Below are positions 24,508-50,585 of a DNA stretch of 64,000 nucleotides, in pieces. The notes under the pieces were generated by a model, which was not told the DNA's origin, made no database searches, and saw nothing but the letters and a program-made list of their open reading frames with translations. Source of the DNA: Trypanosoma brucei (Eukaryota); contig CP000068.1 of assembly GCA_000002445.1 (NCBI GenBank), positions 160,001 through 224,000 of the forward strand, in the 5' to 3' direction. The position numbers and the translations under genes are program-made. The first letter of the stretch is position 1. Every line of letters starts with the position of its first letter.

Positions 24508-24891
24508 CTATGAACTCGCATGTCCCCGGGTAGGGTCGGAATTCCCCGCCTGTTTCCTCTTCCTTTCGGCGTGTCTTCGCCGAATGCTCTTAACTCCGTG
24601 AATGATTTGTTTGCGCAGCTGTTTGAATCCCTTCTGTCTCTTATTGATCACATGCGGGAACTGAACAGCTGCAATTTGTTGTGCTAATGGTTTCTCAGCG
24701 ACGCGTTTAGTAACGGGCCCTAGTCCCATAGACTCCTCCAGCTTCAGCTGGTCGTCGTGCTTCTGCTGGAACCTCTTGCGTTTTATTTGGCGCGACCCCC
24801 GAAGACCCCGTGGGGTTTTCTTGCCTGTATTTTTACCCTGTGCGTGTGTCACGATGGCAACCCTCAGTCCTCTCCCGAATCCACGGCCCAT
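24508..24891 (-). CDS. Small very basic protein (127 aa from MGRGFGRGLRV…; K/R-rich, possibly nucleolar or ribosome-associated); function unknown
   Basis: ORF 24508..24981 in track; the hydrophobic junk N-terminus suggests the internal ATG at 24891 as start. Composition very rich in K/R/Q; no confident family match. Confidence 0.45.
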   Translation of the reverse strand: MGRGFGRGLRVAIVTHAQGKNTGKKTPRGLRGSRQIKRKRFQQKHDDQLKLEESMGLGPVTKRVAEKPLAQQIAAVQFPHVINKRQKGFKQLRKQIIHGVKSIRRRHAERKRKQAGNSDPTRGHASS

Positions 24892-24999
24892 TGAACCCGG
24901 ATTTCGTGTAGATGAATTAATACGTTCAGGTTCCCTCCAGTCCAAAAAAAAAAACAGTGTCGAGAAAGAGACAAAAGTCAATATGCAAACGCAGACGCA

Positions 25000-27900
25000 A
25001 AAGAAAGTTCAAGCGGACAAATTAGATCGGAACAAAATCTGCTAAAGCGTAATCCATTATAATCATGTGAAAAGGAGTGACCTTTCATCCAAAGGGGAAC
25101 TCTTAGAAATGAAAAAAAATATGTAAATGTTGCTTAAAATGGTGACCACGCGTGGCCGGTGGGCGTATTTCACCCCATTTGGGTGCCGAGATAATATGAT
25201 TCAAATTGCGATAAAGCGAATATGTGCAACTGATACTAGTGGATGTTCGTTGCTGCATCATCAGTGAGCACAGACAGATGCAAAGCGTACCAGACTTATA
25301 ACCCTTTCAAACAAAAAGATATCTCACAGCCGTGGAGAAATAAATAAATACCTCAAACGCAACACAAAATGAAACATAGGTTCATAACGAAAAACTTTTT
25401 TTTAATCCTTGTAAAAGAGCTTATTCATTCTGCAGGTCACAGAAGTAGAAGAAGTGCGGGTAGGGGAATAGGTCGAAACTGACGGCTGTCCCACAGTAGC
25501 TCTCCTGCATTAACAGTGGAGCTGTTGCTCAAATTCAAAAACTATTTGATGGTACAAACGAGCAGGAAGAACGATGAAGAGCCACGGATTCAGCCTATAA
25601 TACCATCTTCTTGCACGTCAAGCGCCTAACACAAAGCTACAGCACGACAACCCATTGAGCAGGATGTGGTCCAGTGCGAAACAAACGGTCGTTGAATTGT
25701 GGCACCAGCGCTTTGAGCTGTAGACAACGGAATTCTTCATCGCAAACACACCTGCAGTGAGAAGGGCAGTAAGAGACAGAGTTGCAGCCAGGTGAAGAGG
25801 GAATCACAACGTTCAAAGAGACAGAGCAGTTAATCCATACCGAATAACTCATCGCCGGTCTCACCGCCTCGCAGTACCGTGCATCAGACAAGACAGTTGA
25901 CAGTTGAAACAAAAAAGGAAGACAGGCACGAGAAACCACTTGACTGCCACCAGTCCGTCATTCCGAACACGTAGAAGGAACGCCGTTGAACTGAAAACGG
26001 CACCAGGTCATTTGATTTAACTTGCAAGCATCCACAGCTCAAGGGTATCAAAGACTTTTCGCGAAGATAACACAGCTCATTCCTTCATCGGGCCCTCCTG
26101 AACAATTGGAACACACAAAAATACCTCCTCAGAAGGGCTTTCAGGAAAACATCAGCACCGAATCAACATGGAAACACAAAAATAATTTCGGGCCATCTAG
26201 TTTAATCTCACGAGTTCGCCCCATTCACGGTGTCATGAGCAACCCTCACGGATTATCAAAAGATTAAAGTGCATATCGAATAAAATCGAGAAACGCTTTA
26301 GATGTAAGGCACCCCTGCTACACATAATAAACACAGTGCGAAAACCTCTCCCGGCCAAATCCCCTCCCTTCGTGTACGTGCCGCACCTCTGGAATACAAA
26401 GAACGATCGCGGCAAATATAAAAAAAACCGCTTCGGAATGCTGTACATAACCATGGACCACACAAACACACAAAAAACACGACAAAAAGCGAACACCCAT
26501 CGGGGCGGAACAGAAATGATCAATCCGGGAAACGCAAACCACCACGAAATGATCCGTAAAGCAAAAAAGAAAAAAATGGCGCTACACGGCAAACCCTCCG
26601 CCACCACTGCCCCTCCGGTAGCACACCACACGCGACCAAACACCCACCATCGTTTCGGCGTGTACCCCGTCAACATGGCTCCACCGCCCAGCACTTCACC
26701 CGGGGGGGACTGGGCAGCTGTATGCATCCAACCCCTTAGTGACCGGGGCTGTCGGTCGGCTGCTGGTTGCTGGAGCAATGGGGGGAAGTGGCAAATTGGC
26801 TCCCCGGTGTGGGAAGTGATATCCTTACGGCCCTCCCCACGCTCTTGCACGTTCCCGTGGGCGCGTAGGGGCAACTTCTGCCATGGGAACGCACCATAGA
26901 TAGCGGTACTCCACTCATCGCTGCATCGTAAGGGACCATCTCACCGAAGTGTCCTTGTATTAAAGGGAGTTTGCTTCCGCATTTTGAGGGAGACACATCC
27001 ACGCGACGAAGAAATGAAATGCAAAATGATACCCGTATTTCCGGAGCACTGGAAGAGCAAACCCCTTCAGGAGTTGATGAGTGTTAAAGCCGGAACAGGG
27101 CGGGATGGCCACAGTGCGGGGTTCTACAAAGGTAAGAAAGCGCGGGAGAGTGAAAATTTGGCCAACAGCCGAAAAGGGGCCGCGGGTAGTACCCGCGTCG
27201 ATACATTTACGAGGGTTAGAGGCAAAAACAAAACTGGAACTCAGCAAATTGCGCCCAGCGAAAGTCGCGCCGCGCGTACATGTGAGTATAAATTGGCGTG
27301 GCTTAGGTTAGTGTCCACGCACCCGGCTACACAGCGGAGGATACTGTGTTGTAAAACGGCGCTTGGAAGAACTCTTGATTAGAAAAAAAAAGCAAAAAAG
27401 GGAGCTCCACGGGAAAATCTCCAGACTGCAAGCGAGCTCCAGCACCAGGCCTAGCCATCCACGGGGAGTGTGGTGTCAAGCTAGATCCCGACATTGAATC
27501 CAACCGGAAGGCACGATTAGAATACGATAGAAACAGGCGTCGACGTGGATGCTGCTCAAATTAGTTCTTACAGCCATCACCACACACTACTCGAATGGAA
27601 TAGAGCCGATTGAGCGGCTTACCAATGAACTTGCGTGCCTTGGCTGGGAAATTCTTTACGAGGATATGTCAAGAAACGTCAGGAGCTTCGAAGAGGGAAT
27701 TACCAGAAGTGAGGGCCTATGAACCCAAATTACTGACCATGGGAGCGCCGGAATTACCAACAGCTAAATTCTGCACAGGAACCGCGCCTGTGGGAGATAT
27801 TGTATGCTGAGAAGGAGTGAAGAGGCTCTGTAGGAAGAAGAGGCACCGCTTACTGGGGTTATATTTCACCACATGGAACACACTGTGACGCCGAAACTGC

Positions 27901-30900
27901 AGAGAAAGGGTGTTTTAATATCAGCCTTGAAGGCACACGAGCCTGTAATAAAGGTGGCATCACTCCTGCAATTTACAGTACGAATACTTTCTACAAGTCG
28001 ATGGAAAGAATGGTTGTCAGGATCCCGAAAGATCAACTGCGTAGCCTACTTCACCCACAACTGCCAAGGACTCATGCCCTCAACTGCAAGGGTTAAAGCA
28101 CGTTTGTTTAGTGTAATAATTGAGGCAGAATAGTCTGCACCTTACCTACTCCTACATATAGAAGAGATTTATGATAAAAGATATAATTAATTAAATGACC
28201 AATCTTAGGGTATCCCGGTAAGCTTTTTCAATGTAGATAAAACTCCCAATATTAAGACAATGAAAGAAACAAAACACTTACGATAAGGAATTGGTGAAAG
28301 CGTTCTCATCCCGCCTCCCGCGCTCCCTATCACAAGTTCCACCCTTTCGCTAAGTCCGATGGAAAAACTGCCCTCCTCCGTGAGATACCATCAGCGAAAT
28401 TCGCTAATGAAACAACATAGTCTCAAAGAGCCTCGATGCCTTCCTCCAGATAAGCATGATCTATTAAACTTACTTCTTGAACCGAAGCATCGGAGTGTGT
28501 GTTACCTTTTTTCGTGACATGCATAACTGTAGTATTATCCACACATACGTGAATATTATTAAGCAGGCTGCCCTGAAAAGCTCTCAATGCCAATGTCACT
28601 GCTCTCGCCTTGGTATGAGAGATACAATGTGGAGGTTGTTCTCACTGGCCTCCTGAAGCCCATACTTTCCCGCTGTCCTTAAAAAGTAAGGCTCCCCAAC
28701 CGTGTATAGAAGCATCGGTAACCGATGTTGCAGAAGTCAGTAATTACCTTGACGGCTTAACGGGTTCTTTTTCGATCAACCCGCTTAGTCACTCCTGCCC
28801 CATGCGGATTGCCTGGAGGGAAAGCCGTGCCATGTCGTTCTGCGCCAAGACACACCTGTTGAGCTCCGACAAGCGCCGTCTTACCATCTTTAAGAAAAAA
28901 TAATGTCGGAACAGAGAATCTCCCCGCACCCCCGCCGCATACATCATTCGGGATACTATGCTCTCCAAATTGTCAACAGTAACCCTCTCAGTGGGATAGC
29001 CTCCCTGAGCTTCCGCACCGTTTTTTTGCTCAATGGCACCATCTTTGAACCATGACCAAAGTGGACTCCAATGAAATCATATAGTGCGGTGATGGACTTG
29101 CTTTTCCATGAAGTTGCGCCGCGCTGTAACATGTTTCTTCTAATCACCTTGTTCCATCAGTTTACAACTTCCCGTGGACTGCTAATACGAATATTATCAA
29201 TCCACACATGTACTTTTAGCTACGAAGGCGCTGCATATTCAGCTTTCACTACTGCAGAGTCCCCGGCCAATACACACGGGGCCGTGTGTAAGACTCCCGG
29301 GCCACACTTGTAACCCATAGGAAGTCGGGCAAGTTCCACGAGCTTTCCACCTGCCGTCCGGCATAAGAAACCTGATCGGGTGTCCATCAGCAAGCCCGCT
29401 TTTAAGAAAACGAAGCTTTTAAATCACAAAGCGCTGCACCCTCATCATGGACAGCATCCAGGTAGCGTGGCACGTGTCCCAGAGGAACAATAGCTTCATA
29501 ATCGTCCTGTGCATTCTTAGACTTTGGCCATGTAATGATTCGCCCTCGACAACCCGTTGGCTTCTCTTCCAGCACCGTGAAGGGCACCACCCAACCCGTG
29601 GTAGGGTTGTTGGACACTTTCTGAATTGTACCCTCTCTTTCCACGGTGATAGTATTCTGGTCTGAAATCGTCAATTTTGGCTCGTATTCCCGACCTTCTT
29701 TCCTGGCCGGTCTGCGCATGGTCTCCCAAACATCATTGAAGAGCTGTAAATATTGACTATTCAGTCGTTGCTTGATCCATTTTAGCGATAAAGTCTCCAC
29801 ATTCATCTGTTGTTACGGTAACTCCTGTTGCTCAGTATCCGAGGCGACCTTGGTTTGATGGGTGCGTCGGAGAATGTTGTGTCTCTGAAATAAAGGTCCT
29901 GTCCTATTATTTTTATCGTTGGATTCTGAACCTTCCACAGTAACGTGGCCCACTCACCCTCCGTTTCTACATGAGCGCTGTTAGATTTACTGACTTGTTT
30001 AGCACAGCCACCCATGGCCCTAAATACCTAGTGGTGCTCCGACGAAATTCCATGGGGTCCGCGTGTTTTCCCATCTTGGCCAGAATGCGTGAGTCGAGGT
30101 CGTTTTCTATCACCGCTACGGTCGCATGAGGTAGAGACCCTCTTTTTTATAGAATGCATCGTCATTCCGTAAGGTTTCAGAATGTTTTCCATGTCCCTTC
30201 TGCTGATGGTGGTTAGTTTTTCTTCATCCGCCCTCCACCTTACGACTTTCTTCAACTTTTTGGCGTCCTCGCCCGCGATGACGACATTTCACGCTGCTCT
30301 GTGGGGATCTAACTTGGATGTCTTTGGGATGCCCCCCAGTCGACGATTAGTGCCTCCTCGTCCTGAGGATGAGCGACAAAATTTTCCTTTTGCGGCGACG
30401 CAATCTCTCCCCAACGACTGGCAGTGACCCAAGCCAGACGCATGGCCACTCGCTCCCTTTCCTGTTCCATTGTGTCGCTTATCATGTCCAGTTCCCACAT
30501 CTCCATGGGGCAGGCCTGCTTTATTGGTGGTTCTGCCACTTTTCTCTGCAAACCTTTCAAAAGGATTCTTGTTGGTGCCTTTTCCGCTGTCAGCATCACA
30601 AAAGAGTTCTTGTATACTGCACAGCGTTGCTTTTGGCCAGCTGCAAGCTCACAATGAAGACGGGAACATTCCCCTCGCTTGGCTCCACGTTGTGCTTTGC
30701 CACAGACTCGCAGAATCTCCTGAGAATCGACCCCAACTGCTCCCATATTGACTGTGTCCAAATTCTTTTTGCGATGTGATTCGCTTTTGAAGCCCACGCC
30801 ACCATAATCGTATCGTGGGTGGTTTTATAATGATAACTTCCTTTGCCGGTGTTTTCGTAGGGCGCAAAACTGGGGATGCCGTTTCTCTTGCTGGCTCTCT

Positions 30901-33900
30901 TCCCTCTGTGTCCTCCTCTACCATGAGACCTTTCCCCGGCAAGTTTTCCGTGGCATTTCTCCATTCGCTATTACCCACTTGTGGGTCCTTGGCCCCGTAA
31001 CCATGGACACGGATTCCAATATTTTCTCGGCCCCGAAGCTTACTGTTTCCGGGGCCGACATTCGCTTTTTGGCTTCCACGGAACCTTGGCATCCTTAACG
31101 AAGCATGACGTACTGTAGTGCCACAACTTCCCACATCGGAAGCATCGTATTCTGCTAACTTGGGAAGTCGGTTTTTGAACTTTGGGGTATGCTTGATGGT
31201 ATGGATCCTCGTCCCTCCTTGAGTCATGTACTGCCTTTGCAAACGCTTCCACTCGCACCCCCGAGTGGGCTCTCTCTGTTTGCAAGACTCGAAGATAAGT
31301 GTGAATCGACCTCCCGACTGTTATCCCACCTTCTGAGAGGCCTTCCAATCCTACTGCATTTATCCACGCCGCAAATTGCTCCCAGACGCATTGTAACCCG
31401 TGATCCGATTTTTGTGGTAATGGGAACAATTCTTTGTACGCAGTTAAAAAACTGTTCCGGTGATGTCTCTGTCATGTATTCGATTTCCCCTTCAAACGTC
31501 CGCATATTTTCTTCAGGGCGAAAACCCTTGTCCACAAAGTTATTTTTTAACCGCTGAATGCCTCTGATTCCCACCTTGGGGTTCCTTACATATTTACCGC
31601 TTGATTTCTGAGTAAACTGTGATTTGTATGACTCAAAAGTGAACTTTATTTCTATTCTACCTTTTCCTTTCGATCTGATTCATTCTTCACTCTCTCTCTT
31701 GTTCGACAACTGGATCCGTTTTATGTGTGGCGTCCGTATTTGCTAATATATTTCAGTGGTGTAATCCAGCTGTTATCGATTCAATGACAGCTTCCAACCC
31801 ATTGATATGGAAGAGCACCTGTTCCATTTCCCCTCTCAAAGCACAATTTTCTTGCATGAACCTTTCAACTTGCCCATTCAGTTCCATCGACTGGTTTTGC
31901 ATTCTCCAGTGCTCATCATTCATCTGTGCTCTTGTCATTTCGTACTGTTGGTATAAATTAGACTTATTTGCCTCTAGTGCTAGACATTCGTTACGAAACA
32001 TCTCTCTATTTTCTTCGAACATAGGCAACAATTCAATGTTTTAGGGCATATTGAAGGAAACAAACGAGGTCCGTAAATCGGCGAAATTTACCTGCCCATT
32101 GTCAAAAGTCACTCGAAGCTCTCCATTGTCAAACCTCGGAAAACCGTCTACATGTACCGCTGAATTTCCAAAAGGGGGACAATAGTTGAATGAAAATGTG
32201 GTCCGACCGCACTGTTTCACAAAAGTCCTTATTTCTTTCAAACTTATTTCCCATTCGGCATCCGATATAGTTGGAGGGGTTGTCGTTAGCATCTCTCAAA
32301 ACTTACAGCGATAACTTACTTTTTAAAAAATTACTTACCCTTTTAAAAAACTTTCCTCCGTAATAGTTTTTCTATGCATATATAAGAAAGGAAAGAACGA
32401 ATAACAAAGAAAGTGGTAAAGATGGACCATTCCTTTCGCAAGCTCCCATTACAAAAGAAAAAAGGCAGAGCAGGCATTTGTGGATTATGCAAGAGCGTCC
32501 GAGTCAGTGGATCGTGTGTAAATCACTGTGGCGCTAAGTCGCTGCAAGTATATTCTCACCTAAAGAGGTGAATGGGACGGTTCCTGTACAGTTCAAACCC
32601 CAGAGTGAGGACAAACAAGACCTTGTCAAACGCTAGTTCCCCAACCTGCGGGGTGCCGCAACGATCCGCTGCCTGGATCAATGCTGCTCATATTCAGAAT
32701 GGACCTCCTCAGCCTAAAGATAAGTAAAGCATCAGGAATTAGAAACAGCTTCCTTGCAAACAACCTAATCATCATACGCGGAGACACGGGTCTAAAAAGC
32801 ATCTGTAAAATGTCACAACAAGGAATCGGCTGCAATGCGCGGTGGCCCATAAAACCATGTGATGACGTGTGTGTGAATGTGTGCTGGAAAGAAAGTGCAC
32901 ATGCCTCGGGATCATGCATGCTAGTACCTTTTAATTCCGTGAAAACAGCAAGAAGATAAAGGAAAACAAAAGATGTGGGGCCGCCAGATCTAACACTTCG
33001 GTCATGTGAGGAAGCAGAGAGGCACAAAAAGGGCAACGGGGGGTTCACAAAAGGGACCACCAAAGTTGCAGGTCATCTCATCCATTTGTCCCAAAGCGTC
33101 CCCGCCACGGGGAGCAATACGAGACAAAGATCTGCTTTACCTGCATATTTCGCCTACGTTATGCAATCGCGCCGCGGCTCAGTGGCTAACCTAACGATAA
33201 AAGCGCATCAATGGGAAAGGAAAGGAGCATGGAAAGCACCCCAAACAGGGAGCAAAGCACAGACAACGTACAGAGGGAACTACAGCCGCCATATATCTAT
33301 GGTAAAATGTTTGAACAAAGGCAATCACTATGGGAACGCATGCCGCGACGTGTCTCGGGTAACCTCCAAGGCGGTTCTTTAGAAGCGAAAAGGAGACCTG
33401 TCTGAGGAAGCGGTGGAGAGCAAAGAAAGGAAAAAGATTAAATTGGCCCTTTCGTCTACCGACCGTACCGACTGGGTGGGCGGTTGAGGAAACGCAACGA
33501 CACGGGTCGCTCAAAGCGCGGCAGGAAGAAAATTTCTCCGAAAACCCACAGGACAAATCACCAGGAAAATAAGGCATGGAGGTGGAATGTCAAATGTGCC
33601 CGAGGAAGTTGCAGAGAAAGGGGGAATTGGCAGGCTACAAGTGCGACAAACCGAATCACCGTGTCAAAAACCGATGACATGGTCATGCGAACAAGCTGAA
33701 AACAAAGTTCCCCATTCACCGCAATAAATGCTGTTCGCACTGTGTAACAAGACACGGCCGAAGGAGTACCAGCGCCAAATTGTAAAAAAAAAAAAGAAGC
33801 GCATAAACAATTAAAGGGCTGATTATGAAAACGAAGCGAAAGGAAAAAGAGAATGGCAAAAAGGAAGACAGCAAAAACATTGAACTTCCTGAGGGATCAG

Positions 33901-36900
33901 GGCAGGCATTGCAAAAGTCACTGACTGAAACGCAGAGTAGAACACGATACGAAAGAGGATGGTGCGATTATTAGCGTGTTCATATGTCGAAACCCATTCT
34001 TTACACAGGGAACAAACACTTGGTGGAAGTTGGAATGAAAAAAGATACAAATGATGAAGCATCTCTGGAATCAAAGACAGCTCCAAAGACCATCCAACGC
34101 TCGCAGGACAAAATGCGTGCAACAAAGTCACATCACTGAACTCATGCAGTGGAAGGGCGAATGCAAAATAGGAAAAAAAGCACAACACTGTAAAATGTGG
34201 GTACTACTCACCTTCCCCAAAACCGTCACAACACCCCTCCCCAGGAAGCGCTCCGTAGAGAAAGCGGTCGAAAATGCCGCAAACAGATGGTTGCCGTTTC
34301 GCATGCAACTGGCACGTTTTCTATGCAAGCTATTTAACCAAAGGGGTTTGAGCTAAACACAGAGGAGCGCCAACAGACTCAAGATAACTGTCAAAGGAAT
34401 TCACACTGAAACGACCATGGGTTGGGAAAAAGGAAAAGGGGGACTACTTCGCCGACGGCCAAGCCTACCTACATTCCGCCACGCCATACTTTGAAGAACC
34501 CGGCGTGTGAGTGCTGCTTGCGGCCGAGGGCACACAACTCATTGGTGCAAAAGGTGACAGTCACGCGGCGGTGTGGAACCGCAAGACTCGATCAGATACT
34601 AGGGGAATAACTTTACTGCGGCGCCATGTCGGTAAGTAGCTTTGGGCCAACAAAAAACTGGCGATAGCACCAAGTGTGCGTGCCAACATCGGGAGCTCAC
34701 ACCTGATGCGTCACCCCTCAAGGGAAGTGCGGGGCGCACCAGTGGATGTCATAGAACTTCACCGAGCAGTGATGGTCAACATCTCCTCGATATGAGTGTG
34801 TGGAACGTACGGGGTGAGCCCATTCGCCAACAGCTTCTCTGCATTCATAGACCAAATCCACACGGAGAAATTTTCTCAGGACAGCCGACGAACTCTGACG
34901 GAAGAATTGGAACTGGTGGAACGTGCACGAATTGGAGAAATGTCTGAGGTGCGGTATCCGTGTTGCAACCGCAGGGGTCGTTCCTTGAATCACAGCCACA
35001 CCACAACACTCAACACCTCAACTTACTAAACTCGATAAGGGGATTGCGAGGTGTCATCGCTCATTGAATGGGGGAACTGGTCGACATGCAGAGGTAGCTT
35101 CCAGGCCGCATGACAAATGAAGGGTGTTTCGTGCCGTTCTGAAAGCACAAGGCTCCGGTCCGTTGCAACTGGTGCGTCAAGAAAGTGTACGCGTCGGGGC
35201 CATTCAACCTCCTGGCGGCTATATGAGACGGTGCTCCAAAACCGACTACCGGCAGGAGAAACATTTCGTTGATCCCTACGCGCCCCGGGCAACAGATTAC
35301 TTATCCTCGCCCTTAAGGCATTCGACGTGAGTTTATGGAATGGAATCGTACCTGCTGCACGGGAGAGTTATCAATAATTTCCATACAGAAACACCCTAAG
35401 AAGGCGGAGCGTTTGGATGTCCACGAGGCGGTGAAAGCGATGAGTTGCGCGCGCAAAGCCATCGAGAACATCGTTGGTAATGGAATTGGGGACTTTATGG
35501 GGGAGGGGCCCACACTAGAACCGGGATTTCGGCCGGGTCGCCCCACGCTAAGGCTGCTTCAGCGCTTCCAGATGGCCCTTGGTCACCCGTCGCCGTCGCA
35601 CATGGGAGCGGCATTCATAGTTTACGCGAATGCCTTGGATGTCACACGGAAAGCGGCTGATGGTTTTATTTTACAGCAGAATGAAAGGAACAAAAGTTGG
35701 CAAAACACTGTTAAACAGCCGGACGCTTGCAAGAGGCATAAAGCAACTGCATCAGAGCGCACTGTGCCCCTCAGCCTCGGACTCGCAGAGCCAACTCTTG
35801 GAAGCATTTCCGCTATCACATGACGGCTTTTTTGCGGATAATTTGGCGCTATCGGCGCGATACACGAAGAGGGACCCCGAAGACCGCACACCGCAGGGCA
35901 GCCCCGGCGTTGTGATACAATGGCAGCAAAAGTGACTTATGTACGCCCGCACGCCGGTGACGAAATGCAAACTGCTCAGTTACATTGAACACTTATCGTC
36001 AATGTAACATCACGGTGGGGCTCGGGCTGGGGTTGGAAAAGTACCGAAGATGTTTTGGGACGGCGCGCTGCGCAAACACAGCGAATAGCAAGCCGCAGGG
36101 CGCTGAAAATAGAAACCGTTTGGGCGACGGCGTATCACCCAGATGAGGCGTTGCGTGCTTTACACTTCCGGTTTTTACAATTACGTGACACGTGCAGAGC
36201 TGATGTGTGGCATTAGTGCGTCTCAGAAGGTATTCGAGAGGCGACCGGAGCGGAGCGGCACAAAGACAGCCAAACCATCGAGGACGTATCGCACGCGCAC
36301 TATACAACCCCACCCGTAACTTCGTGCCGGGACGGAAGCCGCTGATCCAAACTTCTCCAACGCCTTCCTTTTCAATGCAACAGGGCCTTCCGCGGGAAGA
36401 TAAGGCCCGTGTGCGCAAACTGTCCCGGAGAGGCTTAGATCGGCGAATGGACATTCTTAAACCAGAGGTCCGGCCAGACCCTCAGCCCAAGTGAGGACGA
36501 AAAAACGATACATCAGGTCAACAAAAGCGGCGGCGCACTTGCACTGGCGGTGGGCCTGCGAAAGGCACCGAATCCCTTCTTAATTCACAAGGCGGTGCTG
36601 CCCAGCCTCTCGATATACCCGCTTTCGTTCTCCACCATGCCGGAGGCGAGCGCAGTTACCATTACTGACCCGTCCCTGCACAAATTGCGGTGGTCAGCTG
36701 TGACAATACCGGGCAGGAACAATTGCATTAGACCACAGTTTGTACTCCCCTGCTGCGGCGTGGCATTGAACGAAGGCGCGCGGCGAAATTGCGAAGAATG
36801 TCGCTGGCATGTCACAGTTGCCCGACCGGGGGTTTGCAGACACCGCGGCCTATTCGAAGCGTTTGTTGTGATCTGGGGAAATATACTCGGGGGCCCACCG

Positions 36901-37900
36901 GGACACATTTCACGACCAAATGCAAAGAATGGATGCGCGGGCCGACAGCGTTGGCTGGCACTGCTGGTGGTCGCCGCACAAAATCAACTCATGGGTGGCC
37001 CGTTCCACCGGTGGCAGGAACCGTAATTTCCACTGGCGACGCTTGCACCCCAACCAATCCCAACGACCACGACCTCGGTGTTAACAACCTTCTTTCACGC
37101 TGAGGGACAAAAAAGGTGTACTAATTGCGGTGCGATATGGCAAACACCGAACGAGTGCAGTGACGAATATGGCGGCGGATCTTCTGGCGTAGGCGCGTTC
37201 TTTTGAAAAATTAAATGCGGTGATGCGTCGCGTCCAGCGTATGATCCATCAGAACCCATGCAACCGCGGCCCGTACTGGCGGCTTCGCGAGTATCAACAA
37301 CAGCAAGCCTCAACACTAAACATTCAAAGGCGTCACGACGGCACCACCTTCGCAGCCACATTTGTGATACAAAGCAATCGGTTCGCGAGCTAAACAGGTC
37401 TTGAATTGAAAAGCAGGATGCAAGATGTAAAGCAATAACTACAAGACAGCGCATCTACCGCAAGAAAACATTGTTTTACCCAACAAGCTACCATGCCCCG
37501 GAGGCAACATAGCCAACACCAAACGACACCGCCATCCTGCAGAAGTTCTGCTTCTCGGGTCGCCTTGAATAACTTCAACTCACCACAAAACGACTCCAGA
37601 GCTTGACGCCACTCTTAACTACGACTATTGAAAAACAGGGTAAACAGGAACCAAAATCATACAGCACCCCCATTAACAAGAGAATAGACAGAAAAAACTA
37701 AGCAACAAACAAAAAAGTGGAAAAGTCGGCATGTCAGCAAGTCTAACATCTAGCATCGCCTCCTCACCCTCCAACAAACACACACCCAAAAAACAAAACT
37801 AGCACAAAATTTTTTTCACATCAGCAGAAAAAAAACCAAAAATACAAAATAAAGAAAAAAACAACATTTATCAGCGGTGGAGAGAACGGTACAACTAGGG
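25000..37900. other. Gene-poor, sequence-complex zone with only short, mutually overlapping ORFs on all six frames; interpreted as degenerate pseudogene/retroelement debris
   Basis: Unlike the trypanosome intergenic spacers elsewhere in the window (low-complexity, homopolymer-rich), this 13 kb is compositionally complex and GC-balanced, yet no frame stays open for more than about 215 codons. Chains of same-strand ORFs separated by frameshifts are visible. Confidence 0.45.
28950..32300 (-). mobile_element. Degenerate retroelement-like pseudogene chain (frameshifted minus-strand ORFs) including a CCHC zinc-knuckle gag-like remnant
   Basis: Ten successive minus-strand ORFs tile 32292→28956 head-to-tail with frame changes (32041-32292, 31753-32031, 31224-31574, 31040-31429, 30649-31242, 30309-30797, 30028-30255, 29803-30015, 29402-29806, 28956-29147). 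ORF 31040-31429 ends in …RCFRCGKLWHYSTSCF… which is a CX2CX4HX4C zinc knuckle. No intact RT motifs could be confirmed by eye. Confidence 0.4.
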
Positions 37901-37978
37901 AAAAAATTAAGAATTGAACAAAACACAATAAACAAACACAAAACATGCTGAAACCAGCGACAAATGGGTATGATTGTG

Positions 37979-39813
37979 CAACACTGTTTTTGCATAATCA
38001 TACGCATGAATGCGTATTTGACGTGAAAATACGCAATAATGCACAATTTGTGAACAAACATGCAACATTGTGCAGGTTGTGCAAGAATGCGTGTTTTACA
38101 CCAAAAACACCTTACATGTTGCATTGCAACACTGTTTTTGCACAATCATACGCATGAATGCGTATTTGACGTGAAAATACGCAATAATGCACAATTTGTG
38201 AACAAACATGCAACATTGTGCAGGTTGTGCAAGAATGCGTGTTTTACACCAAAAACACCTTACATGTTGCATTGCAACACTGTTTTTGCACAATCATACG
38301 CATGAATGCGTATTTGACGTGAAAATACGCAATAATGCACAATTTGTGAACAAACATGCAACATTGTGCAGGTTGTGCAAGAATGCGTGTTTTACACCAA
38401 AAACACCTTACATGTTGCATTGCAACACTGTTTTTGCACAATCATACGCATGAATGCGTATTTGACGTGAAAATACGCAATAATGCACAATTTGTGAACA
38501 AACATGCAACATTGTGCAGGTTGTGCAAGAATGCGTGTTTTACACCAAAAACACCTTACATGTTGCATTGCAACACTGTTTTTGCACAATCATACGCATG
38601 AATGCGTATTTGACGTGAAAATACGCAATAATGCACAATTTGTGAACAAACATGCAACATTGTGCAGGTTGTGCAAGAATGCGTGTTTTACACCAAAAAC
38701 ACCTTACATGTTGCATTGCAACACTGTTTTTGCACAATCATACGCATGAATGCGTATTTGACGTGAAAATACGCAATAATGCACAATTTGTGAACAAACA
38801 TGCAACATTGTGCAGGTTGTGCAAGAATGCGTGTTTTACACCAAAAACACCTTACATGTTGCATTGTAACACTGTTTTTGCACAATCATACGCATGAATG
38901 CGTATTTGACGTGAAAATACGCAATAATGCACAATTTGTGAACAAACATGCAACATTGTGCAGGTTGTGCAAGAATGCGTGTTTTACACCAAAAACACCT
39001 TACATGTTGCATTGCAACACTGTTTTTGCACAATCATACGCATGAATGCGTATTTGACGTGAAAATACGCAATAATGCACAATTTGTGAACAAACATGCA
39101 ACATTGTGCAGGTTGTGCAAGAATGCGTGTTTTACACCAAAAACACCTTACATGTTGCATTGCAACACTGTTTTTGCACAATCATACGCATGAATGCGTA
39201 TTTGACGTGAAAATACGCAATAATGCACAATTTGTGAACAAACATGCAACATTGTGCAGGTTGTGCAAGAATGCGTGTTTTACACCAAAAACACCTTACA
39301 TGTTGCATTGCAACACTGTTTTTGCACAATCATACGCATGAATGCGTATTTGACGTGAAAATACGCAATAATGCACAATTTGTGAACAAACATGCAACAT
39401 TGTGCAGGTTGTGCAAGAATGCGTGTTTTACACCAAAAACACCTTACATGTTGCATTGTAACACTGTTTTTGCACAATCATACGCATGAATGCGTATTTG
39501 ACGTGAAAATACGCAATAATGCACAATTTGTGAACAAACATGCAACATTGTGCAGGTTGTGCAAGAATGCGTGTTTTACACCAAAAACACCTTACATGTT
39601 GCATTGTAACACTGTTTTTGCACAATCATACGCATGAATGCGTATTTGACGTGAAAATACGCAATAATGCACAATTTGTGAACAAACATGCAACATTGTG
39701 CAGGTTGTGCAAGAATGCGTGTTTTACACCAAAAACACCTTACATGTTGCATTGTAACACTGTTTTTGCACAATCATACGCATGAATGCGTATTTGACGT
39801 GAAAATACGCAAT
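37979..39813. repeat. Tandem satellite array, 148-bp unit × ~12.4 copies, 62% AT, nearly identical units with a few recurrent SNPs
   Basis: Exact periodicity of 148 bp seen directly (caacactgtttttgca at 37979, 38127, 38275 …). The six-frame track shows the same 81-aa and 65-aa ORFs repeating every 148 nt on both strands. Unit GC counted by hand is 56/148. Confidence 0.95.
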
Positions 39814-42800
39814 AGTTTGCATTTTATGCTTTAATGTTTATGTTGCTCATGCTTTTTTTCAATTTGCATATTTTGCGTGAGAAGGGTTGTTGTAATTAGA
39901 CTTGTTTTCACCTGATCGATGTATTAATGGATATGAAATGGGAAAGGTGTCATGATGTGCTGCCGTGTAAGTGTGAAAATTAATTTTTTTAGTTTTTTTG
40001 TTTGCCGTGTTCTAAAGCAGTGTGTTGTTGTTTCTTTTTGATGCTGTCTTTATTTTTTTGTAGCGATTTTAGCGAAGCGGATGGAAATGTTGAGTTTGTG
40101 ACATTCTTTTTTTTTTTTAGTGTGTCCTGTTTTCGCGAGAGCAAATGTTTAGGAATACCGAATTTGTTGTATTGTTTTCTGTTTTGCTGTTAATGGCGAG
40201 GGGTCTTTCATGGAAAGTGTTTTCGAGACCCACAAGGGTTTATATTGCTTTACAAAGTGTACCGGAATTGCTTGGTGCCACGAAAGGGGGACGTGATTGT
40301 AAGCGAAATAATGTGCCACGTAGTTGCACGGAATAACGTGATGGTAGGAAAAATCTGCGAAGAGGGGGGTCATACGAGGAGCTGCGTACGGAAGGCGATT
40401 GGGACCTGTCGCAACAATTTCACTACTTAAAGGCCAGTCTTTTTATGTTGCCATTTACTGCCGGCTTGGGCGCCGTGAGAGCGGGGGGGGCAGGGGACGT
40501 TTAGCGGCAGATGAATGGTTCGAAAAGGCATAATTTGCTCAATTTCCATCAAAGCAGCGAAAAGTGAAACATATTCGATAAAGCCAGTCTGCGCCACTCA
40601 CCAATGACAATGCCAATTTTTGTTTTTAATGTGCCGTTTCGTCGATCACATGACCGGGCACCGCCACTTTATGGAGATCCTGTTGGGATATATATATAAA
40701 TATATTGTGCGTCCTTTCGAGCTGTTGGCGACATTTTCTCATGCTCTAGGTATTAAGTTCCTGTGAGTGACGCTGCATACCTGCTTGCAGCTCGTTGTTC
40801 TTTTATTAAGCGTTAGCGCTGAAACGGGCCTCGCACAGTGTTGTTATTGTGGTTTGAGGCGCCAACGAATAACTGCAGAGCCGTTGTCTTTCGCAATCCT
40901 GCATGAAGAAAGCCTCCCGCGAACAAAACGCAGCTGTTCCAAAGAGGCCGTATGATGCGGTTTTACCTCATGTACAACCTGACGGAACGTTGGGAACGCC
41001 TTCGGCCATTGTGAACAAATCGCAAAACCACGTCAAGGCAACCACCTGTCCTTACCAGTGTGCGTGAGGTTGCCATAATTTGCATCATAAATTGCTCCCC
41101 GTAGATGCCGATGGATCTTTGCGGTTGCTTCATCCATGCAGTGACTCGCATGTGAAATGCATGACCATCCTATTGTTTGGTTGCAGAACACAGGCTGGAG
41201 TGCTAAACGCATCCTTCCCAAGCCTCGACGCGTCGTCCGCCGCAACAGAAACGGTATCCACGGCTTCAACACTTTTCCGCAACCGCCCGCGTCCTGAACC
41301 GCCAGTGTGCTCCTCTTGCCCGACCTCCCTTTTCTTTTTTTAAAAGTTTCATCGCGTCCGATTAACTGCTGCTCTCCGTTCTTACGCTTCGTGGTGGTCT
41401 CTTAGTTCTCAACCCATCTCACTTTCCGCGCAGTATAGGACTGTGGCACCGCGCAATCAACTGATACGCATATTTGAACAGGCTTTGCAGTAGCTTTAGC
41501 TTCATCCAATGCCAAGCCGTCAGTATTTTCCCTATTCCCCTTCTTTCCAGCGATGGTGGCTGGAAACTCAGTTATATGAATGTGTTCTTAACCGCGGAAG
41601 CGAAAAGAAGCAACCTTCAAAAACTTTCCTCCCTTTAAATGTTTCATTCCGCAGCCAAACCTTTGTTAGTGAGGGCATTCGTCTTGTTTCCTTCCTGACT
41701 TAATGCATATCCAACTTAGCTTCGTCACTGGCATTCTCTGCACTCCTGCATGTTCCACCCTCATTTTTTTTTCTTCTTCCAAACCCATCACTATTTATCC
41801 GTTTCATGACACACACGCATATATGTATTGTCCATGCGCCATTTGGTCGTCGTCTCCGCATTCCTTCGGCAAACGTTTACTTTCATTATCTTTTAAGAAT
41901 TTCCTTTTGAATAATTAAATGTGTATAAGTAAAAAACTTGACGGAAGAGATAAGGGAGTGAGATGAGGTGCAATGACGCCAATCAGTTGTTACCTCCCAC
42001 CCCCAACGCACGGCCACGCGCATGCGGTGCGTTTGGAGCAGGTGTGAAGCAAAAGACAAAAGGAAAGTTATAATTTAGCAATTTCTGCCCACTGATCGCG
42101 TGCGAACGCACTGTATTAACCTTAAACCCGTGTGGTTGGCGGGAAAGATTATCTTTGACGCGTGATGGAAAGGGGGGGGGGGGAGCGGCGCGGGCGGGCA
42201 CCACATACATCTCTGTGTGTTGTCGTCTTTTTTCTTCAAATACTGCTTTTCTTTTCTTTTCTTTTCATTCCTTTTTAAAACCCGCAGCTCACAACGAACT
42301 AATTTCGCAAACTAAATACACCCCGTGAATTTCCCCCCTTGCTCCTTGCGCGTTGAGAGGGGTACTTCCGTTATTTCCCTCATGGCCGTTTCTTTTTTTT
42401 TTCCCCTTAAACTTCTTTTCCCCTTTTAATTCATTAAGAAAGAGGAATCAAAACGCACACCCGCAATTCTCGCTCGTTTTTTTTTTGCGGCCATAAGGGC
42501 GGTTTTTTTTTCAAATTTATTTATTTAAAAATAAATAAATATATATATATAGATAGAACGCTGAACGTGTAGGACTGTTTCCCCCCTTTCCCACCTCACC
42601 ACCATTAACTCGCTTTTTTCCTTTTTTTCGTAATACATGTCATCTTATTCCCTCAACTTTCCTTTCCATCATGTCATGGGTTTTAAAATAAAGGGAAGCA
42701 CAAACAGACAAACTCAGCACCACTGGAACATCCCTGATATACCAAAAGCAAAAGAAAAAACTTGTATAGATACGTTGGAATATGAGTTTTGTGCTGATGA

Positions 42801-43428
42801 TACGAAACAAAAAAACAACAAACAAAAGCAGGAGGATGACGCAACGCCATGAACAAAAATATGTTTCAAGGAAAAATGTTTGTATGAAATGCCGTCACCC
42901 TCCCCACGCATTAGTCATCAGTCAAAGCAATCAAATATGCTAATCAAATTAATATCAATGATTTTTTTTAAAAAAAAGTAATTTCTATTTTTACTTCAGA
43001 CAAAAAATGAGAAGGCGGAGCCAAAATTATAAAAATATTTATACCTGCATAAGCTCATAAGAATATATATATATATATAAATACCATTAAATATAAAAAA
43101 GAAAAAAGTCAACATATGACCCTTCTCGCTATTTCTCCCTCATTCCTTTTTATCTTACAAAAACCCATTTCACCAATTTACACCAGTGAAGCGGTCATAT
43201 GTTGGGGGAGGCGAACTCCCGCCCCCTTTTCTCTTTTTTTCCCTTAATTTTGTGTCTTCTCCATTAATTTCCAGCTAAAAATTCTTTCAGTTTCCTTCTT
43301 ACTGCTGCAGCTTCCGATGAAAATATTACCGCAGACGTGAGGTGAAGAAGAAGAGGGAGGGGGAGGGGGGAGGAAACAAATAACGCATTGGCATAAAAAT
43401 TTTGGTGCATGTGCATATGTGCAAAATT

Positions 43429-44715
43429 CTAAAGAATATTACCTTCTAAGACGTCAGATCCCAACTCCTCCTCCTTCCCTTTCTTTTCCACCTGTCCTTC
43501 CACCTCATCCCTTTTTTTCATGTGCCACCTGAGGAGGAGAAACAAAAGTATCAGCAAAACGAGCGGGACAACAATCGCAACGACCAAAACGGCTACGCTA
43601 ATTCCCAATGGCGCAGTATCACGTGCCTTCTGGATAAGTTCTTCCTCTTCCTCAGTATTGTTGGGAAGTATAATTTCACGGGAAATATCAACATCATGTT
43701 TTCCATTTTCCCCCAAGACAGTGGTGCGTTCCAATTTGTCCTTCCGTTGCTTAACGAATTCGGTTACGTTTCGAAGAATTGATTTTGGCGTCTCCTCATC
43801 AGTTTCAAGCAAGGTGTAGATTTTGTAAAGCACCACCAACTTTGTCTCGGCGACGTACACGGCGCGTTGTGCCTTCCTCAACTCCGTCACAATCGCATGA
43901 GTTTTGGTCATTGCCCTTTTGTAATCGCCTAACCATCCTTCCCAAGCGGTACAGATATCCGGGCCGCTGTACTTGCTCTTATCTTCACATGGCGGCTTAC
44001 CACTCTTTGCTTTTGGCTTATGTTTATCCCATTTATCCAACGCGAGCTTCATCTTCGTCCCAGTCACGTTTTGGTAAGGCGTACTCTTTCTCAAACCATC
44101 GCAGTGAATGACATTCCTCGCACCATCGGAGTAATCTCTGCGCCGCCCGATAACATAACAATTGTGGCTATAAGGTGATAACTTCAGCCCTCGCTTAATA
44201 TCTCCACCGCAATGCCAGTTCAGAACCTTTAAGAGACCTGTGGCTTTATTATGGTCCTCAATTTCGTCTTCACCCAACGCCTGTGCCGCCGCTCCCTTCG
44301 CTCCATCGATTGATCCTTTAATCTTTTCAGCGACCTCTTGCGCTGTCGCCTCTCCTTGGTCAATGTCTTTCTGAGCTGCCTCGCACTGCTCGCGCAGCTT
44401 AGCCGCGACTGTGGCATACGAGTTGCTTTTTTCATCCAGTCGGGGTCCAATGTATTCAAGATAATAACTCACCCTCTTTTTATCATCAGCCAACAATGCG
44501 GCCAGCCGGTCAGACTCTTCTACAAAATAATCAGCCGATTCTCCAGAAACTTTGGTGGAATAATCCGTCATCGCGCATAGGGCTCTCCCGGCGGCCACGT
44601 CAAGTTTCCTTTCTGCTTTGTAATGCGATTTTCCATAGGATTCCTCATCAGCAAATCCACCTGAGCAACAGACAAGCAGCACGAAGCCGAGCCCAAGCAC
44701 AATAGTACGCGACAT
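43429..44715 (-). CDS. Type-I membrane surface glycoprotein, invariant-surface-glycoprotein (ISG65-like) family paralog A (428 aa)
   Basis: N-terminal signal peptide (MSRTIVLGLGFVLLVCCSG), Cys-containing ectodomain with motifs shared with the two paralogs (…NWHCGGD…, …CTAWEGW…), several N-glycosylation sequons, a single C-terminal TM (ISVAVLVVAIVVPLVLLILLFLLL) and a short Lys-rich cytoplasmic tail. This architecture and size are typical of T. brucei ISG65-type proteins, not GPI-anchored VSGs. Family assignment is from architecture, not alignment. Confidence 0.7.
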   Translation of the reverse strand: MSRTIVLGLGFVLLVCCSGGFADEESYGKSHYKAERKLDVAAGRALCAMTDYSTKVSGESADYFVEESDRLAALLADDKKRVSYYLEYIGPRLDEKSNSYATVAAKLREQCEAAQKDIDQGEATAQEVAEKIKGSIDGAKGAAAQALGEDEIEDHNKATGLLKVLNWHCGGDIKRGLKLSPYSHNCYVIGRRRDYSDGARNVIHCDGLRKSTPYQNVTGTKMKLALDKWDKHKPKAKSGKPPCEDKSKYSGPDICTAWEGWLGDYKRAMTKTHAIVTELRKAQRAVYVAETKLVVLYKIYTLLETDEETPKSILRNVTEFVKQRKDKLERTTVLGENGKHDVDISREIILPNNTEEEEELIQKARDTAPLGISVAVLVVAIVVPLVLLILLFLLLRWHMKKRDEVEGQVEKKGKEEELGSDVLEGNIL

Positions 44716-44920
44716 TTTCGTTTATAGTAACGTTGATGGTACCCAGAAAGTTAGTGCCAAAGCTCTGGTCAGCCGAAAAGCAAAAAATAAAAGATAAAAA
44801 AGGGTAAAACGGAGGAAATCGAAGGGAACAAATACAACACATCACTTGGTTAAAGTTGGGGGGCACCACACACCACCTCACGAAATGACTTAACGCTTGG
44901 CACAAAACCCACCTTTGCTT
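44660..44920. repeat. ~255-bp block (5' UTR plus first ~50 nt of CDS of ISG-like paralog A) duplicated identically at 50325-50585 upstream of paralog C
   Basis: Direct comparison: …ttcgtttatagtaacgttgatggtacccagaaagttagtgccaaagctctggtcagccgaaaagcaaaaaataaaagataaaaaagggtaaaacggagg…cacctttgct is identical at both sites and diverges immediately outside. This explains the duplicated spurious ORFs 44648-44995 and 50271-50570. Confidence 0.9.
44771..44837 (-). promoter_or_regulatory. Polypyrimidine tract (minus strand) upstream of ISG-like paralog A; candidate spliced-leader acceptor region (duplicated upstream of paralog C at ~50436-50502)
   Basis: Plus strand gccgaaaagcaaaaaataaaagataaaaaagggtaaaacggaggaaatcgaagggaacaaatacaac is purine-rich, hence pyrimidine-rich on the coding strand, about 60-120 nt upstream of the ATG. 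Confidence 0.45.
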
Positions 44921-50380: not shown

Positions 50381-50585
50381 TTTCGTTTATAGTAACGTTG
50401 ATGGTACCCAGAAAGTTAGTGCCAAAGCTCTGGTCAGCCGAAAAGCAAAAAATAAAAGATAAAAAAGGGTAAAACGGAGGAAATCGAAGGGAACAAATAC
50501 AACACATCACTTGGTTAAAGTTGGGGGGCACCACACACCACCTCACGAAATGACTTAACGCTTGGCACAAAACCCACCTTTGCTG
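50325..50585. repeat. Second copy of the duplicated ISG-like 5' UTR/signal-peptide block (see 44660-44920)
   Basis: Identical sequence to 44660-44920 read directly from the window. Confidence 0.9.

What the first reader, a model, noticed from the sequence alone, without database searches (positions are those of the whole stretch)
37600..40200. 148-bp palindrome-rich AT-rich satellite array with mirror-image base-skew flanks: candidate centromere-type repeat
Seen directly: 12.4 near-identical 148-bp units (62% AT) at 37979-39813. Each unit contains several short perfect inverted repeats (ATACGCAT-ga-ATGCGTAT, TGTTGCA-t-TGCAACA, CACAA-t-TTGTG). Units differ at a few recurrent SNPs (gcattgCaac vs gcattgTaac in units 6, 10, 11, 12), hinting at higher-order structure. 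The ~350 bp to the left is strongly A/C-rich on the plus strand and the ~400 bp to the right strongly G/T-rich, so base skew inverts across the array. Immediately to the left lie 13 kb of degenerate pseudogene/retroelement debris. Established knowledge: in T. brucei, centromeres of several megabase chromosomes map to arrays of AT-rich ~147-bp repeats embedded in degenerate ingi/DIRE retroelement sequence. The unit length, AT bias and genomic context here match that description, but the array (1.8 kb) is far shorter than mapped centromeric arrays (tens of kb), so it may be collapsed in assembly, a pericentric outlier, or unrelated.
Basis: partly seen in the sequence, partly recalled or inferred. 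Interest (0 to 1): 0.7.

Follow-up and report, generated by a model that had tools for sequence, protein, structure and literature searches.

The report
Known Trypanosoma brucei chromosome-5 centromere repeat

Summary
There are 12.4 near-identical 148-bp units (62% AT) at 37977-39814, and the flanks carry the most extreme, mirror-image G+T/A+C skew in the 64-kb window (-0.41 left, +0.40 right). Exact protein look-ups place the window on T. brucei brucei TREU927 chromosome 5 (Tb927.5.520-.640). Obado et al. 2007 list this array in their Table 1: chromosome 5, 148-bp unit, 62% AT, between Tb927.5.600 and Tb927.5.610, at the etoposide/topoisomerase-II cleavage site. Every unit contains the published canonical CIR147 target TTGACGTGAAAATAC. 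Published work also shows KKT2 kinetochore protein on the chromosome 5 repeats, DCL2-dependent siRNAs from CIR147, and 50 and 75 kb of DNA missing from this locus in the assembly. I found the same shortfall: a PacBio-based T. b. equiperdum chromosome 5 has at least 43.5 units and 24.7 kb more between the same anchor points. Minor unreported details: 3.5 kb of the left flank is duplicated beside another CIR147 array that runs in the opposite orientation. The switch lies at a TGCAA microhomology. No periodic higher-order repeat was seen. The count of short palindromes is not above chance.

The parts
37977..39814 (+). CIR147 centromeric satellite array of chromosome 5: 12.4 units of 148 bp, 62% AT. 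This is the assembled remnant of a much longer array.
   Evidence: TRF; unit analysis; 13 exact copies of the published CIR147 target TTGACGTGAAAATAC; Obado 2007 Table 1.
37964..37981 (.). Left junction. An 18-nt fragment of a unit in reverse orientation (ATGGGTATGATTGTGCAA) is followed directly by forward units. The two orientations overlap in the 5-nt microhomology TGCAA.
   Evidence: Inverted-repeat pairs I15-I18. Junction alignment shows the identical junction in T. b. gambiense DAL972, whereas another CIR147 locus (L002) continues in reverse orientation from the same point.
37200..37976 (.). Left flank, strongly A/C-rich on the + strand, which means G/T-rich on the - strand. Keto skew falls to -0.38 to -0.41.
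39815..40300 (.). Right flank, strongly G/T-rich on the + strand (keto skew up to +0.40). The right junction (…aaaatacgcaata|gtttgcatttt…) is conserved in T. b. equiperdum IVM-t1 and T. equiperdum OVI.
34468..37981 (+). A 3.5-kb GC-rich (0.52-0.58) block next to the array. It is present in a second copy beside another CIR147 array elsewhere in the genome. It contains degenerate non-LTR reverse-transcriptase-like motifs (GFRPGRPT…AAFIVYANALD near 35.5 kb; FFADNLAL near 35.85 kb). Probably the DIRE/ingi remnant described for T. brucei centromeres.
   Evidence: 97.7% identity to L002 9134-12675. 98.4% identity to Logan contigs that share only 34468-37507. Motifs were seen by eye. No Pfam or PDB support. 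Composition.
24509..34467 (.). Gene-poor, stop-riddled stretch between the leucine-rich-repeat gene and the duplicated block. A possible CCHC knuckle lies near 31.1 kb on the - strand. It is collinear in T. b. equiperdum chromosome 5 at least as far as 32042.
   Evidence: (zf-CCHC_5, E = 0.083, below cut-off).
43429..44715 (-). First gene to the right of the array: 'acidic phosphatase, putative' (AAZ11176.1). This is Tb927.5.610 of Obado's Table 1, inferred from accession order.
12915..14432 (-). Probable Tb927.5.560, the probe used to show Topo-IIalpha-dependent centromeric cleavage of chromosome 5. The assignment is inferred from gene order between Tb927.5.540 (9429-10043) and the 2127-aa gene.
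   Evidence: Inference only: the exact sequence of my ORF call was not found in the collection.

Best explanation
The array is the assembled part of the centromeric CIR147 satellite of Trypanosoma brucei brucei TREU927 chromosome 5.

Shown by others for this locus or repeat family:
- It is the single site on chromosome 5 where etoposide traps topoisomerase-II, and the cleavage depends on Topo-IIalpha.
- The kinetoplastid kinetochore protein KKT2 occupies the CIR147 arrays of chromosomes 4 and 5.
- Both strands are transcribed by RNA polymerase II, and the transcripts are diced by nuclear DCL2 into AGO1-bound siRNAs.
- The true locus holds about 50 and 75 kb more DNA on the two homologues, within or immediately next to the array.

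Shown here:
- The locus identity and the sequence identity to canonical CIR147.
- Both junctions are conserved across subspecies.
- Assemblies break or gap at the array.
- A long-read assembly carries a much longer array.

Inferred:
- The satellite works as a regional, repeat-based centromere on which the KKT kinetochore assembles and where sister chromatids are finally decatenated.
- The 1.84 kb in the window is what Sanger assembly could build in from the two edges.
- The mirror-image G/T skew of the flanks has the polarity of coding-strand or GT-rich promoter-type sequence pointing away from the array on both sides. The array therefore sits in a compositional divergent strand-switch.
For: Organism and chromosome: nine window proteins are exact matches to T. 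b. brucei TREU927 proteins on a 1,608,198-bp record, including 'Tb927.5.540'.

Published table entry: 'chromosome 5, 2.3 kb, 148 bp, 62% AT, Tb927.5.600 - Tb927.5.610', associated with Topo-II cleavage (PMC1868937). My values are 148 bp and 62.2% AT.

CIR147 identity: the target TTGACGTGAAAATAC is present exactly once per unit, 13 times, against 0 expected by chance (PMC12975129). The array is 92.6% identical to another CIR147 array, in line with the published '>90% identity' between chromosomes 4, 5 and 8-11. A ~29-bp sub-repeat signal fits the published ~30-bp sub-repeats.

Function, from the literature: Topo-IIalpha-dependent cleavage on chromosome 5 with probe Tb927.5.560 (PMC3035458). KKT2 and 147R-TALE ChIP enrichment at centromeres 4 and 5. 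siRNAs from CIR147 (PMC3447711).

Collapse: the NotI fragment is 80 and 105 kb instead of the predicted 31 kb (PMC3292466). DAL972 has a 100-N gap at its array. The OVI contig stops inside the last unit. IVM-t1 chromosome 5 has at least 43.5 units and still runs off the locus. The span between anchors is 42,438 bp there against 17,776 bp here.

Flank polarity: GT-rich coding-strand sequence drives directional Pol II initiation in T. brucei (PMC5579346).
Against: - Nothing contradicts the identification.
- Obado's table gives 2.3 kb and the array here is 1.84 kb. Their figure may include the AT-rich flanks or come from an earlier assembly version.
- I could not align against the full published CIR147 consensus, because it is in a figure that is not held.
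- The DIRE/ingi element said to accompany every T. brucei centromere could not be confirmed with Pfam, PDB or a homology search.
- Only 6.4 kb of the IVM-t1 array was actually read. The other ~20 kb of the extra span was not seen.
- The genes immediately to the right (43.4-50.4 kb) are on the - strand. Any outward + strand transcription from the right flank would soon meet convergent transcription.
Confidence: 0.97

Rival explanations
1. The array is a short non-centromeric or pericentric outlier copy of the 147-bp family, and the real centromere of the chromosome lies elsewhere.
For: Only 1.84 kb is present in the window. A second small CIR147 array with a shared flank exists elsewhere in the genome.
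Against: Published mapping finds one array per chromosome and places Topo-II cleavage on chromosome 5 at exactly this interval. KKT2 ChIP covers the chromosome 5 CIR147 array.
Confidence: 0.02
2. The array really is about 1.8 kb long and the assembly is correct.
For: The TREU927 sequence is contiguous across it, with no N. DAL972 shows a similar 14.9 copies.
Against: Restriction mapping shows 50 and 75 kb of missing DNA at the locus. DAL972 has a gap at the array. The long-read IVM-t1 assembly has at least 43.5 units and 24.7 kb more between the anchors. Short-read contigs end at the array.
Confidence: 0.02
3. For the flanks only: the mirror-image skew is the footprint of a replication origin in the array, produced by leading- versus lagging-strand mutation bias, and not of transcription.
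For: The sign change, from negative on the left to positive on the right, has the polarity seen at origins in other organisms. From my own knowledge, not checked here, T. brucei centromeres are reported as early-firing origins.
Against: The skew is confined to about 450-750 bp on each side and is very strong (0.4). That looks like local sequence type (T- and G-runs as in T. brucei intergenic or GT-rich promoter sequence) and not a broad mutational gradient. The same left flank lies beside another array in the opposite relative orientation.
Confidence: 0.08
4. For the flanks only: the two skewed flanks are a divergent pair of GT-rich promoter-like or coding-strand-like elements that start or once started Pol II transcription away from the array. 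They would define the centromere as a divergent strand-switch region.
For: The G/T-rich strand points outward on both sides, with the most extreme values in the 64 kb. GT-rich coding-strand elements of 210-416 bp drive directional Pol II transcription and H2A.Z deposition in T. brucei. Centromeres lie between directional gene clusters.
Against: No transcription data were examined. The right-hand neighbouring genes are on the - strand. Ordinary T. brucei intergenic sequence also has this bias, though more weakly (-0.06 to -0.19 in this window).
Confidence: 0.3

Closest known systems
CIR147 centromeric repeats of T. brucei chromosomes 4 and 8 (and the related ones on 9, 10, 11)
   Same: Same family: ~147-bp unit, 59-62% AT, more than 90% identity, the same TALE target sequence, siRNA production, and Topo-II and KKT2 association. 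It is 92.6% identical to the array in L002.
   Different: The chromosome 5 units in TREU927 are 148 bp because of one extra A in CCAAAA(A)CACC. Relative to a shared 3.5-kb flank, the array runs in the opposite orientation.
~30-bp and 120-bp AT-rich centromeric repeats of T. brucei chromosomes 1, 2, 6, 7 and 3
   Same: Same genomic role and setting: one array per chromosome between directional gene clusters with retroelement remnants, at the Topo-II cleavage site, and bound by KKT2. The 148-bp unit has an internal ~29-bp periodicity.
   Different: Different unit length and sequence. Those arrays give no siRNAs.
Human alpha-satellite centromeres
   Same: AT-rich tandem satellite of roughly nucleosome length, with arrays of tens of kb or more that collapse in assemblies, and Topo-II cleavage within the array.
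   Different: No CENP-A or CENP-B system, because kinetoplastids use KKT proteins. No divergence gradient. No periodic higher-order repeat was seen in 43 units.
Fission-yeast pericentric outer repeats
   Same: Centromere-associated repeats transcribed by Pol II on both strands and processed into siRNAs.
   Different: In T. brucei a role for these siRNAs in heterochromatin or centromere function has not been shown. Here the repeats themselves are the kinetochore-bound DNA.
T. cruzi centromeres (GC-rich strand-switch regions of degenerate retroelements)
   Same: Lie between directional gene clusters with degenerate retroelements, and show Topo-II cleavage.
   Different: T. cruzi has no satellite array. 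T. brucei adds the AT-rich repeats.

Membership tests
T. brucei CIR147 centromeric satellite | Tandem array with a ~147-bp unit and about 59-62% AT | tested here: met
   Period 148, 12.4 copies, 99% matches, 62.2% AT. Orthologous arrays have period 147.
T. brucei CIR147 centromeric satellite | Sequence identity to the canonical CIR147 consensus | tested here: met
   The published 15-nt target within the consensus, TTGACGTGAAAATAC, is present exactly in all 13 unit copies, with 0 expected by chance. The array is 92.6% identical to another CIR147 array. The full published consensus (a figure) was not available for alignment.
T. brucei CIR147 centromeric satellite | Complex unit built of degenerate ~30-bp and ~48-bp sub-repeats (Obado 2007) | tested here: inconclusive
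   The strongest circular autocorrelation peak is at 29 bp (41% identity) and then 71 bp. The 48-bp shift is unremarkable at 32%.
T. brucei megabase-chromosome centromere (Obado 2007 definition) | Single array per chromosome at the published position (chromosome 5: between Tb927.5.600 and Tb927.5.610) | tested here: met
   Exact TREU927 chromosome 5 proteins flank the array: Tb927.5.540 is named, and the first gene to the right is AAZ11176.1, an acidic phosphatase. Table 1 of PMC1868937. Only one such array is present in the window. The whole chromosome was not available.
T. brucei megabase-chromosome centromere (Obado 2007 definition) | [quoted passage not shown] | tested here: inconclusive
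   No Pfam, PDB or database homologue supports reverse transcriptase. Only motifs seen by eye (GFRPGR…, FxxYxxAxD, FADN) in the + strand at 35.4-35.85 kb, and the fact that the 3.5-kb block is repeated elsewhere. The literature states it for chromosomes 1-8.
T. brucei megabase-chromosome centromere (Obado 2007 definition) | Etoposide-mediated topoisomerase-II cleavage focused at the locus | not testable with these tools
   Published for chromosome 5 (PMC1868937; PMC3035458 with probe Tb927.5.560).
T. brucei megabase-chromosome centromere (Obado 2007 definition) | Kinetochore (KKT) protein occupancy | not testable with these tools
   Published: YFP-KKT2 ChIP-seq covers the CIR147 arrays at centromeres 4 and 5 (PMC12975129).
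siRNA-producing CIR147 loci | DCL2-dependent, AGO1-bound siRNAs from both strands | not testable with these tools
   Published for CIR147 on chromosomes 4, 5 and 8 (PMC3447711).
Higher-order-repeat satellite (alpha-satellite type) | Periodic multi-unit higher-order repeat | tested here: not met
   The window's T variants sit in units 7, 11, 12 and 13, which is not periodic. In 41 IVM-t1 units the variant types form local runs (for example seven consecutive 148-bp units) and not a fixed period. TRF's 440-bp period scores no better than 147 bp. Collapsed and PacBio-error-prone assemblies limit this test.

The most novel reading that the evidence does not exclude
The array edges are not passive. 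The same 3.5-kb flank adjoins CIR147 arrays on two chromosomes in opposite relative orientation, and the switch lies exactly at a TGCAA microhomology inside one of the unit's palindromic segments. This suggests that whole centromeric arrays, or their edge blocks, are inverted by fold-back or template switching at the unit's inverted repeats. In addition, the extreme outward-pointing G/T-rich flanks may act as a divergent pair of promoter-like or boundary elements that delimit the kinetochore domain and feed the bidirectional Pol II transcription that yields CIR147 siRNAs.
Probability: 0.12. Interest if true: 0.4.

Novelty: already known. Interest (0 to 1): 0.1.

Why it matters
As a discovery it does not matter. 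The chromosome 5 centromere of T. brucei was mapped in 2007, its under-assembly was shown in 2012, and its kinetochore and siRNA associations have been published since. The result is useful as a calibration: a reader with no tools correctly recognised a kinetoplastid centromere from sequence alone and correctly suspected assembly collapse. The small unreported details are the duplicated flank with the array in the opposite orientation, the microhomology at the junction, and the symmetric extreme skew at the edges. They could be of modest use to people studying how these arrays evolve and what bounds the kinetochore domain.

Tried and rejected
- Pfam on ten ORFs of the gene-poor region, and on ten stop-free segments at E up to 10. 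The only hits were leucine-rich repeats in the 23105-24508 gene and sub-threshold noise, with no reverse transcriptase or endonuclease.
- A PDB sequence search with the RT-like segment found nothing.
- A homology search of the same segment returned only one cluster of near-identical Trypanozoon 'hypothetical, unlikely' ORFs.
- Rfam and tRNA scans of the whole window found nothing, so no rRNA genes lie beside this centromere within 64 kb.
- A long inverted repeat between the two flanks was looked for and not found. The mirror symmetry is in composition only.
- A higher-order repeat was looked for and not found.
- Two attempts to fetch the left side of the IVM-t1 chromosome 5 array through exact window ORFs failed.
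- The Logan contigs fetched through the 36550-37023 ORF carry the paralogous copy of the flank and stop about 470 bp before any array. They could not be used to test the junction.
- I did not use the representative-library search or structure prediction, because neither bears on a non-coding satellite that is already identified.

Full report
**The observation.** Tandem Repeats Finder reports one large array in the window, at 37977-39814, with period 148, 12.4 copies and 99% matches. I read the sequence directly. Cutting it into units gives a consensus with 62.2% A+T. Only five sites differ from it:
- C>T at 37995 in unit 1.
- The same C>T change (gcattgCaac to gcattgTaac) at 38867, 39459, 39607 and 39755.

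The unit numbers differ by one only because the site sits on the unit boundary. DNA on either side shows no periodicity (23-34% identity to the consensus).

However, the number and summed length of such short perfect hairpins is reached by 10-23% of dinucleotide-preserving shuffles. The unit is therefore not demonstrably 'palindrome-rich' by that measure. The whole unit does fold as single-stranded DNA more stably than shuffles (z = -3.17, 1 of 200).

(G+T-A-C)/N is -0.406 for 37600-37976 and +0.404 for 39815-40200. No other 400-bp window in the 64 kb reaches 0.40 (mean -0.04, sd 0.11). The two flanks are not reverse complements of each other.

**Where the window comes from.** Nine ORFs of the window are exact matches to annotated proteins of Trypanosoma brucei brucei TREU927 on a record of 1,608,198 bp. 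One of them is named Tb927.5.540. The accession order AAZ11167-AAZ11179 follows the ORF order in the window. The window is therefore chromosome 5, roughly Tb927.5.520 to Tb927.5.640. The first gene to the right of the array is the acidic phosphatase AAZ11176.1.

**What the array is.** Table 1 of Obado et al. 2007 (PMC1868937) lists for chromosome 5 an AT-rich repeat domain of 2.3 kb, unit 148 bp, 62% AT, between Tb927.5.600 and Tb927.5.610. It is associated with the site of etoposide-mediated topoisomerase-II cleavage. Unit length, AT content and position all match.

A 2026 study designed a TALE protein against TTGACGTGAAAATAC 'within the consensus CIR147 repeat' (PMC12975129). That 15-mer occurs exactly once in each of the 13 unit copies, and not at all in shuffled sequence. 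The array is 92.6% identical to a CIR147 array at another locus, in line with the published '>90% identity' among chromosomes 4, 5 and 8-11. Circular autocorrelation of the unit peaks at 29 bp, which fits the published description of degenerate ~30-bp sub-repeats.

**What it does, according to published experiments.**
- Topo-II cleavage on chromosome 5 was shown again with probe Tb927.5.560, a gene that by order lies inside this window, and it depends on Topo-IIalpha (PMC3035458).
- YFP-KKT2 kinetochore protein and the CIR147-directed TALE are both enriched on the arrays of centromeres 4 and 5.
- CIR147 repeats are transcribed on both strands by RNA polymerase II and give DCL2-dependent siRNAs, about 8.6% of small-RNA reads (PMC3447711).

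The mechanism is therefore a regional, satellite-based centromere on which the kinetoplastid-specific KKT kinetochore assembles and where sister chromatids are finally decatenated. What recruits the KKT proteins to the repeat, whether sequence, chromatin or transcription, is still open in the literature. Nothing here addresses that question.

**The length problem.**
- Echeverry et al. 2012 (PMC3292466) predicted a 31-kb NotI fragment for this locus and found 80 and 105 kb. That is 50 and 75 kb of extra DNA on the two homologues, mostly within or next to the array.
- A T. equiperdum OVI contig matches the right flank at 99.8% and stops inside the last unit, at window 39756.
- The T. b. gambiense DAL972 chromosome 5 record has 14.9 units and a 100-N gap at the array.
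- The PacBio-based T. b. equiperdum IVM-t1 chromosome 5 has the same right junction, followed by at least 43.5 units (6.4 kb) that run off the end of the fetched locus.
- The left side of that chromosome is collinear with window 5628-32042 at 98.5% identity.
- The distance from the start codon of the 2127-aa gene to the right junction is 42,438 bp there against 17,776 bp here. That is 24.7 kb more. Only 4.5 kb of the excess was actually seen to be array, and the rest is inferred.

The assembly collapse is therefore established.

**Higher-order structure.** The T variants in the window are not periodic. In IVM-t1 the unit variants occur in local runs, for example seven consecutive 148-bp units near the right edge among 145- to 147-bp units. 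TRF's 440-bp period is no better than 147 bp. The difference between 148 and 147 bp is one A in the run CCAAAA(A)CACC. PacBio homopolymer errors and the collapse limit this test, but there is no evidence for a higher-order repeat.

**The surroundings.** From 24.5 to 37.9 kb there is no intact long ORF. Pfam finds only the leucine-rich-repeat gene at 23105-24508. Relaxed Pfam, PDB and homology searches give nothing for the rest.

By eye, the + strand at 35.4-35.85 kb carries motifs typical of non-LTR reverse transcriptases (…EPGFRPGRPT…AAFIVYANALD… and …FFADNLAL…), split over two frames. The 3.5-kb GC-rich block 34468-37981 exists in a second copy in the genome. [quoted passage not shown] My tools did not prove it.

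No rRNA, tRNA or other Rfam family lies in the window.

**Details that I did not find described.**

Junction and orientation:
- The last 18 nt of the left flank (37964-37981, ATGGGTATGATTGTGCAA) are a piece of the unit in reverse orientation. They are followed directly by forward units.
- DAL972 has the identical junction, so it is real and not a TREU927 assembly artefact.
- In the IVM-t1 record CM010675.1 (locus tags DPX39_04…), the same 3.5-kb flank, 97.7% identical, runs through the same 18 nt into a 14-unit array that stays in reverse orientation. That array ends at an assembly gap.
- The two arrangements part exactly after TGCAA, which both orientations of the unit share.
- The gene beyond that gap is orthologous to a TREU927 protein on a 2,481,190-bp record, so which chromosome this second locus belongs to is uncertain.

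Flank polarity:
- The skewed flanks have their G/T-rich strand pointing away from the array on both sides.
- In T. brucei the coding strand is G- and T-rich, and GT-rich elements of 210-416 bp drive directional Pol II initiation (PMC5579346).
- The array therefore sits in a compositional divergent strand-switch, even though the next annotated genes on the right (43.4-50.4 kb) are on the - strand.
- Whether the flanks are active promoters, boundary elements, origin footprints or merely old intergenic sequence cannot be decided here.

**Verdict.** The object is the known chromosome 5 centromere of T. brucei, so its novelty is nil and the interest score is low. The residual novel reading, array inversion at unit palindromes together with functional divergent flanks, is possible but weakly supported.

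Noticed in passing
window 34468-37981; L002 9134-12675; L012 4371-7435: The 3.5-kb block next to the array is present in a second, 97.7-98.4% identical copy elsewhere in T. brucei genomes, with the same left boundary (34468) in a chromosome-scale record and in several short-read assemblies. In the other copy it adjoins a CIR147 array in the opposite relative orientation.
   Followed up: partly
window 37964-37995: The left junction forms a 12-bp inverted repeat (ATGATTGTGCAA … TTGCAtAATCAT, perfect in DAL972) around an 8-nt spacer. The orientation switch falls at a 5-nt TGCAA microhomology, which is the signature expected of fold-back or template-switch inversion.
   Followed up: partly
L002 14742-14841 and beyond: In T. 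b. equiperdum IVM-t1 record CM010675.1 (locus tags DPX39_04…) the reverse-oriented CIR147 array ends at a 100-N gap. The gene after the gap is orthologous to a TREU927 protein on the 2.48-Mb record, which does not have the size of chromosome 4. This may be a scaffolding join across a centromere or a numbering difference.
   Followed up: partly
window 23105-24508 (-): [quoted passage not shown] Obado 2007 also drew an LRRP gene beside the chromosome 1 centromere.
   Followed up: no
window 43429-50380 (-): Three tandem paralogues are annotated 'acidic phosphatase' / 'invariant surface glycoprotein', all with precomputed Pfam ISG65-75 hits. A 260-bp segment upstream of the gene is repeated at 44660-44919 and 50325-50584.
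   Followed up: no
window 50381-58969: A second gene-free stretch of 8.6 kb. Keto skew changes from strongly negative (52.2-53.8 kb, down to -0.31) to positive (from 54.4 kb). This is the expected divergent strand switch between the - strand cluster and the + strand trans-sialidase gene (58970-61420).
   Followed up: no
window 42500-43110: A very AT-rich low-complexity patch (GC 0.27-0.33) with (TA)n and TTTA runs that form imperfect inverted repeats 510 nt apart, just downstream of the acidic phosphatase gene.
   Followed up: no
window 31043-31471 (-): A stop-free segment with a CCHC zinc-knuckle-like motif (RCFRCGKLWHYSTSC; Pfam zf-CCHC_5 E = 0.083, below cut-off). It may be a remnant of a gag-like retroelement ORF distinct from the RT-like remnant at 35.5 kb.
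   Followed up: partly
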